Shown: positions 4,143-17,439 of the stretch, in pieces
Layout of the letters: every line of letters starts with the position of its first letter
Position numbering within the stretch: position 1 is the first letter of the stretch
Source: Gekko japonicus
Lineage: Eukaryota
Length of the DNA stretch: 64,000 nucleotides
Direction: 5' to 3'
Assembly: GCF_001447785.1 (NCBI RefSeq)
Contig: NW_015177041.1
Span: 159,916 to 223,915 of the forward strand
The notes under the pieces: model-generated
Told to the model about the DNA's origin: nothing
Databases searched by the model: none
Seen by the model: only the letters and a program-made list of their open reading frames with translations
Made by a program: the position numbers and the translations under genes

Positions 4143-5468
4143 NNNNNNNNNNNNNNNNNNNNNNNNNNNNNNNNNNNNNNNNNNNNNNNNNNNNNNNNNN
4201 NNNNNNNNNNNNNNNNNNNNNNNNNNNNNNNNNNNNNNNNNNNNNNNNNNNNNNNNNNNNNNNNNNNNNNNNNNNNNNNNNNNNNNNNNNNNNNNNNNNN
4301 NNNNNNNNNNNNNNNNNNNNNNNNNNNNNNNNNNNNNNNNNNNNNNNNNNNNNNNNNNNNNNNNNNNNNNNNNNNNNNNNNNNNNNNNNNNNNNNNNNNN
4401 NNNNNNNNNNNNNNNNNNNNNNNNNNNNNNNNNNNNNNNNNNNNNNNNNNNNNNNNNNNNNNNNNNNNNNNNNNNNNNNNNNNNNNNNNNNNNNNNNNNN
4501 NNNNNNNNNNNNNNNNNNNNNNNNNNNNNNNNNNNNNNNNNNNNNNNNNNNNNNNNNNNNNNNNNNNNNNNNNNNNNNNNNNNNNNNNNNNNNNNNNNNN
4601 NNNNNNNNNNNNNNNNNNNNNNNNNNNNNNNNNNNNNNNNNNNNNNNNNNNNNNNNNNNNNNNNNNNNNNNNNNNNNNNNNNNNNNNNNNNNNNNNNNNN
4701 NNNNNNNNNNNNNNNNNNNNNNNNNNNNNNNNNNNNNNNNNNNNNNNNNNNNNNNNNNNNNNNNNNNNNNNNNNNNNNNNNNNNNNNNNNNNNNNNNNNN
4801 NNNNNNNNNNNNNNNNNNNNNNNNNNNNNNNNNNNNNNNNNNNNNNNNNNNNNNNNNNNNNNNCAGGAGCTTTGCCAGTGAGCTCCCGCTCTGGTCTCTC
4901 TTCCCTTCCCGGCAGGCACCACTTCCCCTTCTTCCGCACGGCTCCTGAGGGCTGGAAGAACACCATCCGCCACAACCTGTGCTTCAGCAGCAGCTTCCAG
5001 AAGACCGCAGAGTTTGTGTGCCTCGAAGGGAACCGCAAGTCCCGCCTGTGGAAGCTGACCCCCGAGGGGCGCCGCAAGCTCCGGGAGGAGGTGCAGGCCC
5101 TGTCTGAGGCCCAGCGGGGACTGCTGCACCAGAGCATGGACAGCCCAGGTAGGCAGGCAGGCAGGCAGGCAGGGAGCCTCTCGCGTCCAAAGGCAGGGGA
5201 GGGGGAAGGAGGCGAGCCTCTGAGGGGCTTGAACCACCAGGGGACCCGAGTCACAACTCCCCTGGGAGGTAGGCCAGGCAGCAAGCTCCCACGGCAGAGT
5301 GGGCATCTGAACCTGGATTTCCCAGAGGCCCAGTCCCGCCACCAAAGGGACCTGCCTTCAAGGAAGGGGCCCTCTCCAGGCCGAGGGGCATCCCTGACTC
5401 AGGGCCCTCTTCTGTTCTCTTTGCCCCCCCTCCTCCCAGAACTGATGAGGTCTCTCTTTGGGCTTTGA
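3617..5468 (+). CDS. FOXR1: Forkhead box R1 (FoxN5/FOXR1); middle exons fall in the N-gap 4143-4863
   Basis: ATG at 3617 gives MELRLRNAAFWASL, similar to the FoxR-family N-terminus (human FOXR2 MDLKLKDCEFWYSL). The first donor is uncertain (after 3710 or after 3962). Exon 4916-5148 encodes the forkhead C-terminal half HHFPFFRTAPEGWKNTIRHNLCF...LWKLTPEG. The last exon 5440-5468 encodes ELMRSLFGL* (human DVMPFLFDL*). AG/GT sites are canonical and the position upstream of CENATAC is syntenic. Confidence 0.9.
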
Positions 5469-6935: not shown

Positions 6936-8585
6936 TGTTATCTGTGTGCCAATTTGCTGCTGTCCACAAGTCTTCTTGCTCAGTTACTTCTGCACCTGGA
7001 CTCTGAGCAGCCCTTCGCGGCAACTAAACCCCCCCCCCCCCCCTCACAGGCAATGGCTGAGGAAGCCTTGTTTCCAGGTCTCTGAGGAAGTGCGCATGCC
7101 CACGAAAAGCCTGTCCCCCCCCAGAACGGCACTCGGAGGTGCCCCATCCNNNNNNNNNNNNNNNNNNNNNNNNNNNNNNNNNNNNNNNNNNNNNNNNNNN
7201 NNNNNNNNNNNNNNNNNNNNNNNNNNNNNNNNNNNNNNNNNNNNNNNNNNNNNNNNNNNNNNNNNNNNNNNNNNNNNNNNNNNNNNNNNNNNNNNNNNNN
7301 NNNNNNNNNNNNNNNNNNNNNNNNNNNNNNNNNNNNNNNNNNNNNNNNNNNNNNNNNNNNNNNNNNNNNNNNNNNNNNNNNNNNNNNNNNNNNNNNNNNN
7401 NNNNNNNNNNNNNNNNNNNNNNNNNNNNNNNNNNNNNNNNNNNNNNNNNNNNNNNNNNNNNNNNNNNNNNNNNNNNNNNNNNNNNNNNNNNNNNNNNNNN
7501 NNNNNNNNNNNNNNNNNNNNNNNNNNNNNNNNNNNNNNNNNNNNNNNNNNNNNNNNNNNNNNNNNNNNNNNNNNNNNNNNNNNNNNNNNNNNNNNNNNNN
7601 NNNNNNNNNNNNNNNNNNNNNNNNNNNNNNNNNNNNNNNNNNNNNNNNNNNNNNNNNNNNNNNNNNNNNNNNNNNNNNNNNNNNNNNGAGGGGGGAGGGA
7701 GCCCGAGCTTGGATCTCGGGGGTGGGGGTGGGGGTGGGCTCCCCTGGTGGTTGGAGACCCGCTTAATGAGGGGGGAGAAAAGTAAGAGCCCACCTCTTGT
7801 AAGTAGATACAATGATGATACCTGCCACGAAAGTCAACACCACTCAGGGCAGGAATATTGGCTTGATCCGGCAGATGGGATGGAGCCTTAGAGGTCAAAA
7901 GGTTATCGTGGAGGGAAAAAGGTAACCAACCGTGCTATGGCCTGGGACGGAACCATCCCTGATTGAATCACCCCAGAGACTGCCTGGGCTCCTCCGACCA
8001 CAAGAACAGTAGCCTGCCAGGACTCTGAAAGTAACCCATCTGGTGGTAATGGCATGGAAATAGCCTGTCAAAGGGAGTGGCATATGCCCTTTAACCAGAG
8101 CTGAGGCGTCTGGAGTCTTGTCTTGCTGCCGCTGGAATCACAGATGAAGTAGAGCTGATCACTAGGCTCGTGGTCTGTTCATCCATGGAACCCCCACTAT
8201 TTAACAGACAGTGGGGAGCGGTTGCTGATGGGTGCCTCAGGATGGCCTTTGTCTGTATTCCCAGCCAGGCGCCTGGTCCCCAGGCTCTTCTGCTTTCACT
8301 GCAGTTTGGGAAGGTCATCCATCCTAACTGGATCTGGAAGAGGGCCACTCAGGACCCTTCAGGGGTGTCAGGCTGGCGACAGGGGATGAATGTTGTCCCA
8401 TCCGTGACTCACCTTTCAGTAAAGCCATTTCTGAGATCCATTCCAACAACTAATTTAGTATATTTTACTACATTTCTATCTCACTTTTCTCCCCAATGGG
8501 GATACAAAGTGAACACCTGAAGGTGCCTCATACCAAATCAGTATGTGCAGCTAAAGCAGTCTTCTGGTCGGTCTTCTTTTTCAAG

Positions 8586-11500
8586 CCCTGAACACAAGAA
8601 AGCAGTTGGTACGTTCTGGTGGGAGAACAAAGCAAACCCCAACCTGAAGTGCCAGTTCCTGATTTCTTCTGAGGATTATGAGCTGTGAGTAGACCCCTTC
8701 GTCAGCAGCGTGATGGTTGCTGCGTGGCAGTTCCTTTGCTAGCTCAAACTGCAGCTCTTGGCCAGAAGGAGCTTGTCTGAAAGCAAGCACGGGTGTGTCT
8801 CGGCTGCTCTACTTACGGTGCACCCAGGCTGGCAGGACTCATGTGGAGCGAGGCAGGGTAAGGGGGGGGGGGGGGGGGCCCCCCCGCCCCTAGCCTCTTG
8901 CACCTGTCCTTTCCGCCATGCCAGGGGCTCCAAGAAGAACTTGCCTTGTTCAGAGACCAGCAGTATTGCCGCCCTGCATGGTGTACAGTAGAGACTGCAG
9001 AAGTCCTGGGTCTTTGTAGCACCACAAACCCATGCCTTGGATTTTATTCCAGCTTCAAGACGTCCCTCACCAAAGCGCTGGATGCTTACGAAGAAAGCAA
9101 GGATGGAGTCATTCAGCAGGCGAGTGTGATGCTGGGAAGGGCGAGAGCAGGGCCCCTGGGGTGCTCTTTTGTCTCGTGGTCTGATGGTGTCTTCTGCCCT
9201 CTCTAATTACAGATGGCCGCTCATATCCGAAAGGTGGAACAGAGCCGACAGGAAGTGGTGCAGGCCATCTTAGAGGTTTGTGTGCCCAGGATGCCAGGGG
9301 GCAGTATCCACTATCGTAGTCACAGTCCTACTTGTGGCCTCCCTCCCCGTTTGTCTGTCTGTTCCTCGGCTGGCGACCTCACCTCGTGTGTTGGCTAGAA
9401 GGTGTCCAGTGTGAACCCAGCCCCACCCACCTGAGGGATCTCACTTGGCTTCCTGCCTGTGGCCTTTCTGGCCCCTCCCCATGGGGGAGCTCTTCAGGCT
9501 GACAGAGAGAGGACAGGCCTCAATGTAAGCGGGCCCCTTTGGGCAGTGCTCTGTGGCTCTCAGATGGCTCGTAGAACCATTGATGGTGTGGATTAAATGT
9601 CTCTTCCCTCAGTGTAGGTCTTTTGCTTTGTTGACAAACACCAGAACTGCCCAGCTAAGTAACTCTCCTTCCCATGCTGCCCAGACCCATCACGTCAGGA
9701 TGGATGGATGGCGTGTGTGCACGCGCCTCTGCTTAAGGGGATTGGGCTGTTTTGGGGATCACTCCTGCCTTTCTTATTGTGAGGGGTTGTACTCGGTGTA
9801 CTCTTTTTTGCTGGGACCTGGTGGAATCCCTTCCTGCAAACTTGACTCCTGTTTCTTGGAACAAGCATTTGTTTTTCCTGAATCAAACTCAGCCACAGAC
9901 GGAGACAGAGCTGTGCCAGGGAGTTGCTGTTGTCAAGACCTGTACAAGTACCCAAAGGTAAGAGGCTTATTTCAGGTGGTTAGCTGTGGCATTGCCTTCA
10001 ACACCTTGATGCTACCAGACACCAGCAGTAGTAGTTTTCTGCTCCTTTCTGGACAAGATGGGTCTTTGTAATGCCAGCTAGCCCCAAGCTGGGTTGAGAT
10101 TCTCCTGTGCTCCAGTGACTTCTCCTGTGTTCCAGTGACTTCTCCCTTGCCGTGGAAGACAGTGCACAACCAGGCCCAAGCAGGAGTGCCACCTCTGCCA
10201 GAGAACAGCTTGAATCTCCGTGTAGTAACATGCCTGAGCTAGATTGGCAGGAAGCAAGGCAGTCCTTAACGTTTATTGGCCACCAGGTAAGTGCGGCCAG
10301 AATCCTGCAGACGCTTCAAGTCCCTGTAGCATGAATGGCACTTGACCCCAGGAGCTAGTTTGCAGTGTTGTCTCTTAATTCATTAAGGAAGTGACACTAG
10401 AGCAGGGATGTTCTACCTGCAGCCTGCTTCTCTTTGGGAAATGGCATTGCACAAATGATTAGCAGAACGGTACTCTGACTGAAGCATGCACATGCTGTCT
10501 TGATTTGCAGCTGCCTCTGTATTATGCCTGCCAGCTTCTCTGATTTTTCACTTTTTTTGAAATACAGGAAACAAAAGGGACAGGCAATGTGCATACAGGT
10601 ATGTCTGAAGATTTGCTCGTTTTTCTTACTGCCTGAAAAAATTCTGAACATATTTTAAACCAGTGGGTATCTCTAGATGTTTAGTGCCAGCGCCTGGTTG
10701 AAACTGAATCCTGACAGCAGACCCTTAGAGCCCTGGGGTTGCACTGGACCCGGCATTATGGCTGGAGGAGCAAGCTAGCGCAGCTACCACAAAGGGGGGG
10801 AAAAAGGCCCTTCAGATCAGCTTGGAATGTCCCGTTGGTGCAGAACACTACCACAGTAAAGTTACACACATCACAGACATTTTACACTCCCTCTGTTGGT
10901 TACTGATTAGTTACTGGGTTCATTTCAGTGTTCTGGGTGTCACCTGCAATGCTTTCGGAAGGTACTACCCTGCCAATGTGGAACTGTCTGTCTTGGGAGC
11001 TCAGGAAGGCATTTTTATCAAGGCAGTAAAAATGAAGCATAATAGAACATCTCAGGAGGTTGCTCTTGCAAAGGAACAGGAAGGATGATAGTTTATTGTG
11101 TATATCACCTTTTTACTACACTATTTTCTACTTCTGTTGACCCACCTGCTTTCTGCATTATGGTATGTTGTGCCTTAGACAATTTTTGTCGGCCTTGTTC
11201 TTCAGTTTTGTAATTCAAGTCCTATTGCCGGTTGGTGTAGTGGTTAAGTGCGCGGACTCTAATCTGGGAGAACCGGGTTTGATTCCCCACTACTCCTGGC
11301 TGGCTGATCTTGGGCAAGCCGTAGTTCTGACAAGAGCTGTCCTTGAAAAAGAGCCGTTTCTGTCAAGAGCTCTCTCGGCCCCACCTGCCTCACAGGGTGT
11401 CTGTTGCGGGGAGGGGAAGGGGTTTGTAAGCCGCTCTGAGACACCTTTGGGTAGTGAACAGCGGGGTATAAATCCACTCTCTTCTTTATGCCATCTGATT

Positions 11501-12325
11501 GTTTTGTTTTTTGCATCTATAATCTACCTAGAGGTCCAGTGAAGGCAGGCAAATAAAGCAAAAATAAGCAAACCTATTCCTGTTCTCATCCTCAGGAGCC
11601 AAACCCCCCTGGTTGCTGGAAGAGGAAGGAGAGAAAAACACAGGGCAAATTGGACCTTCGTATGAAGAATTTCTCAAGGAAAGTAAGTGGTGATTTGGGT
11701 AGTGGAGAGGGGACACGCTGGACGCCAGATACCTGAATATGGTATCTCTTTTCTTCCCACAGAAGAGAAGCAGAAGCTGAAGAAGCTCCCACCTGATCGG
11801 GTTGGGGCCAACTTTGATCACACCTCTCAGACAGGAGAAGGCTGGCTTCCCTCCTTTGGACGGGTATGGAACCACGGCAGGAGGTGGCAGTCCAGGTACA
11901 GTTCTGGTCACTACTGACTGCAGAGTAGTCGGTAACTATCTTTTCTTTGAATATAGCCATTCTGTTGTAATGTCAGCTAAGAATGGTTTGCCGATTTCAA
12001 CCAGTACACTATTCCAGATATGTGACACTATGTGACCATTTTTGGGTTCTTGCTTATAAAAGTTCATCAAAATACATTTAATTTCAGGCTGCCCCAAGAC
12101 TCCCATCTTGATAGAATACACCTCTAATATTTGGCTAGAGCATCTCAGTAGCTGATATATTATGCTCCAGTTACCAGGGCGTGAAGGATTTTTAATTGAT
12201 GTTGGGGGTTCAGACAATGGCCTGCTGCTTAATTTCATGGTGATGCTTTCTCTAGGCACCAGTTCAAAGCTGAAGCAGGACAGGAAAAGCCAAAAATGAA
12301 GAAGAGGAAACTGCCTGATTGCTGA
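8586..12325 (+). CDS. CENATAC: CENATAC/CCDC84, minor-spliceosome AT-AC splicing factor; 5' exons missing, probably in gap 7150-7687
   Basis: Exons 8586-8684 ([16 protein letters not shown]), 9053-9119, 9213-9275 ([16 protein letters not shown]), 9893-9957, 10136-10286 (PELDW..LTFIGHQ), 10568-10598 (GNVHTG), 11596-11682 ([15 protein letters not shown]), 11763-11895 ([35 protein letters not shown]) and 12256-12325 (HQFK..stop). All phases are compatible. Confidence 0.95.
11231..11485 (+). mobile_element. tRNA-derived squamate SINE (Squam3-like)
   Basis: A/B-box head TTGGTGTAGTGGTTAAG...GGTTTGATTCCCC and tail GCGGGGTATAAATCC. Related copies at 34880-35155(-) and 39552-39825(-). Confidence 0.75.
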
Positions 12326-13057
12326 TGAAAAGTTGAGCCTGTGGTATTTGTAAAGTACCAGGAAAGGTGTCAGTGTGCACTATATTGGGTATGCCTGGTA
12401 TAGTCTAATGTATGTCAAATACTAGGTTGGAAAGGGTTGCTGGGAGGGAGATTAAAAAAATTATCCTACCCTCTCTCTCTGCGCAACTAACCTTGAATAT
12501 GTGACTTGAGTAGATGCCATTTTGCTTGCTAGTTCCCTCCTTTTCCTACCAGTGCTTGTCTCAGTGTGGGCACACTGGTATTTTCCCTCCCATGGAATTT
12601 ATATATAGATATAAAATCCAGCATCTGAGTAAAAGCGTGCTTTTTGTCTATTTATATTAAAACCATAAAAATGTATTCTGTGTCCTTATTGAAGTACTTT
12701 TCAGAGCAAAGGTGCGAATAGGAACAGAAAAGCTTCCTTTTCCCGAGCTTCTCTGTGCGACCCCACATTCTGTACTAGGGAGCAGCCTTAGCCCCATACA
12801 CTTTGAGTGCTGACCCTGACTGAACAGAAAAGCAGCAAACACAAAACACAGCTTGATGTGATAGATCTTTTTAAACACCACCAGTCTGAAAAGTTCAATT
12901 ATTTTATTTTTATGAACATACACAAGAATTTAAGCATCACTTCTGATCCTGTAAAGCAAACAGAGAACTAATGAGAACCATATTGTCCTGCTTCGCCAGA
13001 ATCCCAACAAGCCATCAGGTACATAAGAATCTGGGCACACCAAAGCGTCTCACCTTC

Positions 13058-17100
<4,043 letters not shown>

Positions 17101-17439
17101 TCCTCTTCCTCCTCGGCTCTCCTGTGGTTCCTTCCCTTAGGGATCAAATTTGTCGTGCTCGCCGACCCACGGCAGGCAGGGATTGACTCCCTCTTACGCA
17201 AGATCTATGAGATTTACTCGGACTTTGCTCTCAAGAACCCTTTCTACTCCTTGGAGATGCCAATCAGGTACAGCTTTCTTACTCTTACACCTGTGTGGAG
17301 CCATGCAAGGCCACCCCCCCAGCCAGAATCTATGAGTGTGTGTGTGCACGCACAGTATTCGTCAGGTTCTTGCCTTGAAAAACTCAATGGAAGTTTGGAG
17401 TTATGAGAATGATTGGGGGTGGGGGGGCAGCTAGAGACC

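What the first reader, a model, noticed from the sequence alone, without database searches (positions are those of the whole stretch)
9276..9892. Candidate U2/U12 competing-donor feedback switch inside CENATAC, itself a minor-spliceosome factor
Seen: the productive donor after exon 9213-9275 is weak (GAG|GTTTGT). 28 nt downstream lies GCA|GTATCCAC (9304), a near match to the U12 5' site GTATCCTT. The shared acceptor (AG 9891-2) has no adjacent polypyrimidine tract (AATCAAACTCAG) but is preceded by TTCCTGAAT (9875-9883), close to the U12 branch consensus TTCCTTRAC and about 10 nt upstream. Splicing 9303->9893 adds 28 nt and shifts the frame. The shifted frame reads ..TAC CCA AAG|TGA, a stop at the first codon of the next exon with four junctions downstream, which predicts NMD. 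Known: CENATAC promotes minor-intron splicing, and the minor-spliceosome genes SNRNP48 and RNPC3 self-regulate through U11-binding elements. I recall a U12/U2 site switch reported for human CCDC84 in U4atac-mutant cells but cannot confirm it is this intron. Inference: high minor-spliceosome activity routes CENATAC mRNA to decay, a negative feedback loop that could be conserved in reptiles.
Basis: partly seen in the sequence, partly recalled or inferred. Interest (0 to 1): 0.72.

Follow-up and report, generated by a model that had tools for sequence, protein, structure and literature searches.

The report
Known CENATAC minor-spliceosome feedback switch
This vertebrate's CENATAC gene carries the same pair of competing splice sites already published for the human gene, where the second site would give a cut-short, likely degraded message and so likely acts as feedback on minor splicing; RNA here shows the productive splice and strong intron retention, so this is a known, conserved element.

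Summary
The intron is CENATAC (CCDC84) intron 5. Its U2 donor (9276), U12-like donor (9304), branch site (9875-9883) and shared acceptor (9892) match the human element: same 28-nt offset, 9 of 9 bases at the U12 donor, 26 of the last 27 intron bases. Cologne 2019 showed the U12-to-U2 switch in U4atac-mutant cells. De Wolf 2021 proposed the autoregulatory loop, with an alignment of 43 vertebrates including 3 reptiles and 1 lizard. The predicted U12 product stops at 10136-10138, 399 nt before the last junction. RNA of this species confirms the U2 junction (21, 2 and 0 reads in 3 raw-read runs). The U12 junction is not among the 15 joints shown; 37 were hidden, so it stays open. Intron 5 is strongly and selectively retained in 2 of 3 raw-read runs and in the 1 contig run. 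NMD and true self-feedback remain inferred, in humans too as far as the texts seen go. The scan's notes held no earlier CENATAC finding. Verdict: real, already known, low interest.

The parts
8586..8684 (+). CENATAC exon 3 (numbered by counting back from exon 9)
   Evidence: Pfam CCDC84 PF14968 match, E 1.7e-6, profile 91-122; junction 8684->9053 in RNA
9053..9119 (+). exon 4, followed by a GC-AG intron
   Evidence: junction seen in all 4 runs laid; donor CAG|GCGAGT
9213..9275 (+). exon 5
   Evidence: RNA junctions on both sides; open frame
9276..9281 (+). U2-type donor of intron 5, productive
   Evidence: 6 of 9 matches to the U2 consensus (consensus recalled); junction 9275->9893 with 21 reads in X21, 2 in X22, 0 in X20
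9276..9303 (+). 28-nt extension of exon 5 that would be added when the U12 donor is used; shifts the frame by +1
   Evidence: sequence; same 28-nt offset in human; its use is not shown in this species
9304..9311 (+). U12-type donor, off-consensus at +7 and +8
   Evidence: identical to human from -2 to +7; 4 of 6 pairs to this genome's U11 at +4..+9, one of them G-U
9875..9883 (+). U12-type branch site TTCCTGAAT, likely branch A 9882
   Evidence: 9 of 9 identical to the human branch site; 9 of 10 pairs (8 Watson-Crick, 1 G-U) to this genome's U12 with the A bulged
9891..9892 (+). shared 3' splice site AG
   Evidence: used by the U2 junction in RNA; last 21 intron bases identical to human
9893..9957 (+). 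exon 6
   Evidence: RNA junctions
10136..10138 (+). TGA, premature stop of the predicted U12 isoform (first codon of exon 7)
9396..9398 (+). in-frame stop of the intron-5-retaining transcript
   Evidence: retention seen
10136..12325 (+). exons 7-11 (10136-10286, 10568-10598, 11596-11682, 11763-11895, 12256 to the stop at 12323-12325)
   Evidence: all junctions in RNA; exon 10 matches PF14968 at E 5.5e-22; one match in the genome

Best explanation
This is intron 5 of CENATAC with the same two donors, branch site and shared acceptor as the published human element, and it likely works the same way: the major spliceosome uses the first donor to make full-length mRNA, while minor-spliceosome binding 28 nt downstream would divert transcripts into a frameshifted, likely degraded form or would stall them with the intron retained. 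Shown here: the sites, their identity with human, the productive U2 junction, selective retention of the intron in some samples, and the presence of U11 and U12 genes whose RNAs can pair with the sites. Shown in human cells by others: both donors are used, and U4atac mutation shifts use to the U2 donor (U12 share 0.62 to 0.14). Inferred: use of the U12 donor in this species, decay by NMD, and that the loop adjusts CENATAC protein to minor-spliceosome activity. Both minor sites depart from consensus in the same positions in human and here, which likely keeps the competition balanced.
For: Gene identity: Pfam CCDC84, one match in the genome. Intron number: the exon ending at 11682 closes with the same Glu codon plus one base as human exon 9 (c.803-805), so the intron at 9276 is intron 5. 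Human sites: donor, acceptor and branch sequences, 28-nt offset and PSI 0.62 to 0.14 in TALS fibroblasts, mean change -0.54 over 4 data sets. Published model and conservation in 43 vertebrates including 3 reptiles and 1 lizard. Dual-type acceptor bound by U2AF1. Human intron responsive in 7 of 9 minor-spliceosome perturbation sets. Plant orthologue TTL shows a comparable loop with reporter evidence. Pairing to this genome's U11 and U12. Stop 399 nt before the last junction.
Against: No 9303->9893 joint among the 15 joints shown (37 not shown). In X21, the cleanly spliced run, depth just past the U2 donor equals at most about two reads (about 42 letters in bin 9286-9416) against 21 U2 junction reads, far below the human U12 share. 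U11 pairing is weak, 4 of 6. The U12 isoform is abundant at steady state in human controls, which does not fit efficient NMD. In de Wolf's tables CENATAC depletion raised retention of this intron (PSI 0.15 to 0.36, padj 1.5e-4) but no significant alternative splicing was listed, U2 introns of the gene rose as well, and MVA-patient and ZRSR2-mutant cells showed no significant change in retention (padj 0.66 and 0.99). The human intron did not respond in the U12 and U4atac morpholino sets, and the mouse Ccdc84 minor-like intron responded in 1 of 6 U11-loss sets.
Confidence: 0.85

Rival explanations
1. Retention switch: in this species the U11/U12 complex binds the weak minor sites and blocks the U2 donor but rarely completes splicing, so the main unproductive product is a retained (perhaps nuclear) intron 5, often with intron 6, rather than a U12-spliced NMD target. 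This is a variant of the best explanation and can hold together with it.
For:: reads inside intron 5 at 9316 are 14, 0 and 14 in X20, X21, X22 against 0, 21 and 2 U2 junction reads; the X1 contig runs through the whole intron (depth 131) with no U2 joint. Intron 5 mean depth 17.4 and 10.8 in X20 and X22 against 0.96 and 1.58 in bins of introns 3, 7, 8 and 10 (the bins of the repeat were left out). Intron 6 is retained too (6 reads at 9980 against 1 and 5 junction reads in X20 and X22). The related RNPC3 loop works by nuclear retention.
Against: Only 3 raw-read runs from 1 study plus 1 contig run whose RNA status is a guess; tissue and library selection are unknown; 37 joints hidden; U12-spliced mRNA could be made and removed by NMD, which would leave the same picture. 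Human control retention is low (PSI 0.01 to 0.15).
Confidence: 0.3
2. The minor sites are conserved and used but serve as a general sensor or expression damper, not as self-feedback by CENATAC: the intron is GT-AG type, a class that depends little on CENATAC.
For: CENATAC mainly promotes AT-AN introns; the donor switch is documented for U4atac mutants, while the CENATAC-depletion and MVA tables list no significant alternative splicing in this intron.
Against: The intron is scored responsive at 24 h and 48 h of CENATAC depletion; the MVA patient shows raised expression of a mutant allele; the plant orthologue shows self-feedback.
Confidence: 0.3
3. The U12 sites here are a relic of a minor intron being converted to a major one and are no longer functional in this lineage.
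For: Off-consensus donor and branch site; classed only 'minor-like' in human and mouse; minor-to-major conversion is a recognised alternative reading of nested sites; no U12 joint shown.
Against: 26 of the last 27 intron bases and 9 of 9 donor bases are identical to human while the bases further upstream differ; the offset is the same non-triplet 28 nt; human cells use the site heavily.
Confidence: 0.05

Closest known systems
Human CENATAC/CCDC84 intron 5 competing U2/U12 donors (Cologne 2019 PMC6800510; de Wolf 2021 PMC8280824; review PMC8329584; PMC10853781)
   Same: Same gene, same intron, same order of donors, 28-nt offset, same branch site, near-identical acceptor, premature stop on the U12 path.
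   Different: The stop falls at the first codon of exon 7 here, in exon 6 in human. The U12 intron is 589 nt here, 627 nt in human. In the runs laid here retention dominates or the U2 splice is near-complete, whereas human controls show about 62% U12 use and little retention.
Arabidopsis TITAN LIKE (TTL) AT-AC intron feedback (bioRxiv 2025.02.25.639993; de Wolf Fig S10B)
   Same: A CENATAC-family gene in which minor splicing yields the unproductive mRNA.
   Different: There an AT-AC intron lies inside coding exon 3 and retention is the productive form; no competing U2 donor.
USSE feedback in SNRNP48 and RNPC3 (as described in review PMC8329584)
   Same: Minor-spliceosome activity routes the mRNA of one of its own proteins to an unproductive form.
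   Different: The USSE is a U11-binding enhancer that is not used as a donor and activates an upstream U2 acceptor; here a single U12 donor with its own branch site competes for a shared acceptor.
Dual-type 3' splice sites in DRAM2, PFDN5, KANSL2; MAPK12 case (PMC10853781, PMC8329584)
   Same: One acceptor spliced to either a U2 or a U12 donor.
   Different: Not minor-spliceosome genes; no feedback proposed in the passages seen.

Membership tests
CENATAC intron 5 U2/U12 switch (vertebrates) | host gene is CENATAC/CCDC84 | tested here: met
   PF14968 at E 5.5e-22 and 1.7e-6 for 2 of 5 exons scanned; the other 3 gave no family; one genomic match
CENATAC intron 5 U2/U12 switch (vertebrates) | the intron is intron 5 | tested here: met
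   counted back from the exon matching human exon 9; exons 1-2 were not found in the window and probably lie in the gap 7150-7687
CENATAC intron 5 U2/U12 switch (vertebrates) | upstream U2 donor gives full-length frame and is used | tested here: met
   open frame to 12325; 23 junction reads in 2 of 3 raw-read runs
CENATAC intron 5 U2/U12 switch (vertebrates) | downstream U12 donor at a frameshifting offset, with U12 branch site and shared acceptor | tested here: met
   28 nt as in human; sites identical to human
CENATAC intron 5 U2/U12 switch (vertebrates) | the U12 donor is used in vivo | tested here: inconclusive
   not among 15 joints shown, 37 hidden; X21 depth allows at most about two extension reads
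CENATAC intron 5 U2/U12 switch (vertebrates) | donor choice responds to minor-spliceosome activity | not testable with these tools
   shown for human only
U12-type GT-AG intron | donor and branch site can pair with the organism's U11 and U12 snRNAs; branch A about 10-15 nt from the acceptor (range recalled) | tested here: met
   U11 and U12 genes found; 4 of 6 and 9 of 10 pairs, branch A 10 nt upstream; the pairing registers are recalled
U12-type GT-AG intron | passes a U12 position-weight-matrix classifier | not tested
   no matrix on hand; the human sites score 0.82 (donor) and 0.87 (branch) in de Wolf's table and are 'minor-like' in PMC11347168
NMD-coupled unproductive splicing | stop more than 50-55 nt upstream of the last junction (rule recalled) | tested here: met
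   399 nt
NMD-coupled unproductive splicing | isoform rises when NMD is blocked | not testable with these tools
   no such data for this species; one search (CCDC84 + nonsense-mediated + U12) returned only the review, which says 'possibly'
USSE (SNRNP48, RNPC3) | U11-binding element not used as a donor, activating an upstream U2 acceptor | tested here: not met
   single GTATCC site paired with a downstream U12 branch site; the human orthologue is a used donor

The most novel reading that the evidence does not exclude
In this species the CENATAC switch works mainly as an all-or-none retention gate: the conserved weak minor sites hold intron 5 (and intron 6) unspliced in some tissues or conditions (14 retained against 0 spliced reads in one run) and release it fully in others (0 against 21), giving strong tissue- or condition-specific control of AT-AC intron splicing that the human cell data do not show.
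Probability: 0.2. Interest if true: 0.4.

Novelty: already known. Interest (0 to 1): 0.14.

Why it matters
It confirms, in one more vertebrate, a conserved feedback design by which the minor spliceosome would set the level of its AT-AC specificity factor, a disease gene for mosaic aneuploidy. Since an alignment including reptiles and a lizard is already in print, the added value is small. The one lead is the large sample-to-sample difference in intron 5 retention, which, if biological, would make CENATAC output tissue- or condition-dependent and would point to retention as an output not covered in the animal model as described in the passages seen.

Tried and rejected
Conservation across genomes could not be tested directly: the collection holds no relatives of this genome, so conservation rests on the human sites in a supplement and on a figure legend. 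De Wolf's Appendix PDF with Fig S9 was too large to read; the logos themselves were not seen. The run search listed no indexed holder on record as RNA: no RNA holder listed, no evidence either way; three 2026 raw-read runs added by species label were laid instead, with only about 3-12 in 100 of each run read. I laid 4 of the 22 runs listed. A repeat at about 11230-11490 swamped the joint table, so weakly supported joints are unseen and the U12 junction stays open. An ungapped best fit of the 9304 site to U11 gave 8 pairs in a shifted register; rejected because those U11 bases lie in a stem of the folded RNA. My first gene model missed the 31-nt exon and gave three downstream junctions; corrected. 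Motif counts in the window are at chance level, so motif presence alone is no evidence. Searches without result: autoregulation terms in de Wolf's readable supplements, Ccdc84 in the supplements of PMC6717393 (0 hits), CENATAC passages of PMC13049632, PMC11347168 main text and PMC11874965 (nothing on this switch), general searches (listings only; led to the preprint legend). Five reads beginning at 9892 in X22 fit neither donor and were not used. The local fold of 9240-9340 had no shuffle control and was not used. No protein homologue search, fold or complex job was run: none would change the verdict.

Full report
Observation. Every coordinate of the finding is in the sequence. Exon 9213-9275 ends at GAG|GTTTGT; GCA|GTATCCAC follows 28 nt later at 9304; TTCCTGAAT lies at 9875-9883; the acceptor AG is at 9891-9892. 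With the RNA-confirmed exon chain, the U2 path keeps the frame open to 12325, and the U12 path stops at 10136-10138 with four junctions 148, 179, 266 and 399 nt downstream; a transcript retaining intron 5 stops at 9396-9398. Neither motif is enriched in the window, so the case rests on placement and on conservation.

Gene and intron. Two of five exons scanned match Pfam CCDC84 (E 5.5e-22, 1.7e-6), and the exon 10 peptide has one match in the 2.49-Gb genome. The exon ending at 11682 closes with a Glu codon plus one base, as human exon 9 does (c.803-805), which makes the intron at 9276 intron 5. Exons 1-2 were not found and probably lie in the gap 7150-7687.

Comparison with human. De Wolf's supplementary tables list the human U12 intron (chr11:119011312-119011938, 627 nt) with its donor, acceptor and branch sequences. 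Compared by eye: 9 of 9 bases are identical from -2 to +7 of the U12 donor, the branch site is identical, the last 21 intron bases are identical and 26 of the last 27. Cologne's table puts the two human donors 28 nt apart (118881993 and 118882021). This is the orthologous element, with the same departures from consensus (donor +7, branch position 6). This genome has U11 (best 109.7 bits) and U12 (142.9 bits). In the recalled registers the 9304 site forms 4 of 6 pairs with U11, the 9276 site 3 of 6 scattered ones (two G-U), and the branch region 9 of 10 with U12.

What is in print. Cologne 2019 (PMC6800510; passages and supplement rows seen) found U12 use giving PTC transcripts and U2 use giving the full protein, about 65/35 in controls and 15/85 in U4atac-mutant cells, mean change -0.54 over 4 data sets. 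De Wolf 2021 (PMC8280824; passages, section 6 and supplement rows seen, Appendix not readable) calls the layout an autoregulatory circuit like those of 48K and 65K. Its preprint (passages seen) gives the legend of Fig S10: intron 5, PTC in exon 6, shared acceptor, 43 vertebrates with 3 reptiles, 1 lizard, 3 birds, 1 amphibian and 10 fish. The review PMC8329584 (passages and part 1 of section 7 seen) repeats this, calls NMD possible, and suggests the U12 branch region doubles as pyrimidine tract. PMC10853781 (section 16 seen) calls the acceptor dual-type and bound by U2AF1. PMC11347168 (passages and two supplement rows) scores the human intron 'minor-like' and responsive in 7 of 9 perturbation sets, and a mouse Ccdc84 intron in 1 of 6; I did not check that the mouse intron is the same one. 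The Arabidopsis TTL preprint (passages) reports a related loop with reporter support.

RNA of this species. Four of 22 listed runs were laid on 8500-12400: three raw-read runs of one study and one contig run whose RNA status is a guess. All eight junctions of the model appear. The U2 junction has 0, 21 and 2 reads in X20, X21, X22 and no contig in X1. The U12 junction is not among the 15 joints shown; 37 less supported joints were hidden, so its use is neither shown nor excluded. In X21 the depth in bin 9286-9416 amounts to about 24 and 18 letters by mate direction; 18 is what one read ending at 9303 would give, which is too little to call, and it caps the extension at about two reads against 21. 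The unexpected result is retention: 14, 0 and 14 reads at 9316; mean intron 5 depth 17.4, 0.12 and 10.8 against 0.96, 0 and 1.58 in bins of introns 3, 7, 8 and 10 (repeat bins left out); X1 has one contig through the whole intron. X21 differs from X20 and X22 (Fisher p 4e-10 and 2e-8 on read counts, single samples, no replicates). Intron 6 is retained in the same runs. Selectivity argues against DNA or general pre-mRNA carry-over, but tissue and library selection are unknown.

Mechanism. Most likely the U1 and U11/U12 machineries compete for donors 28 nt apart and share one acceptor whose T-rich branch region serves both. U2 splicing gives full-length CENATAC (shown). Minor-spliceosome engagement would give a +28-nt frameshifted mRNA lacking the conserved C-terminal motifs, or would stall the intron (use shown in human, inferred here). 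When minor activity falls, flux moves to the U2 donor and CENATAC would rise (shift shown in human U4atac mutants; protein effect inferred). Confidence 0.85 for the overall design. NMD as the sink is perhaps an even bet, given the high steady-state share of the U12 form in human cells. Self-feedback by CENATAC protein in particular is not established: depletion raised retention (0.15 to 0.36) along with U2 introns of the same gene, no significant donor switch was listed, and MVA and ZRSR2-mutant samples showed no significant retention change in those tables.

Novelty and score. Already known, including conservation in reptiles. Differences from human are the position of the stop (exon 7 against exon 6) and the retention pattern. 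The scan's own notes gave 8 other minor-intron findings and none on CENATAC; none moved the reading. Interest 0.14; the retention-gate reading has probability 0.2 and would merit 0.4.

Noticed in passing
window 9120-9212: Intron 4 is a GC-AG intron (CAG|GCGAGT); the junction is seen in all 4 runs laid (6, 23 and 13 reads and a contig).
   Followed up: partly
window 9958-10135: Intron 6 is retained together with intron 5 in X20, X22 and X1 (6 reads at 9980 against 1 and 5 junction reads; X1 depth 102 against 127) but little in X21 (2 against 39).
   Followed up: partly
window 10110-10149: A 20-nt tandem duplication gives two near-identical acceptors for exon 7 (10116 and 10136). Only 10136 is among the joints shown; the upstream one would frameshift the productive mRNA.
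   Followed up: partly
window 9893-9898: A second AG 6 nt into exon 6 is present in human too; its use would drop two codons in frame. Not among the joints shown.
   Followed up: no
window 10260-11646: Junctions around the 31-nt exon 8 have several times more reads than neighbouring junctions, and many molecules end at 11639 or 11646 in all three raw-read runs. Unexplained; may be a library or counting effect.
   Followed up: no
window 11230-11490: High-copy transcribed repeat in intron 8 (depth in the thousands). It looks like a squamate SINE, a resemblance recalled and not tested.
   Followed up: no
window about 4870-5200 and 16480-17270: Translations resemble a forkhead gene (FOXR1-like) upstream and TRAPPC4 downstream, the neighbours of human CCDC84; names and synteny are recalled, from no call.
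   Followed up: no
window 13735-14560: Broken reading frames resembling a LINE-type retrotransposon fragment (resemblance recalled).
   Followed up: no
L002 (G000:C14572:1197793-1197943): A second, weaker U11 match (70.3 bits), 151 nt long; variant or pseudogene.
   Followed up: no
window 9065, 9316, 9676: All reads covering these places differ from the assembly, so they are strain differences or assembly errors; none of the rows shown touches the splice signals (175 rows not shown).
   Followed up: no
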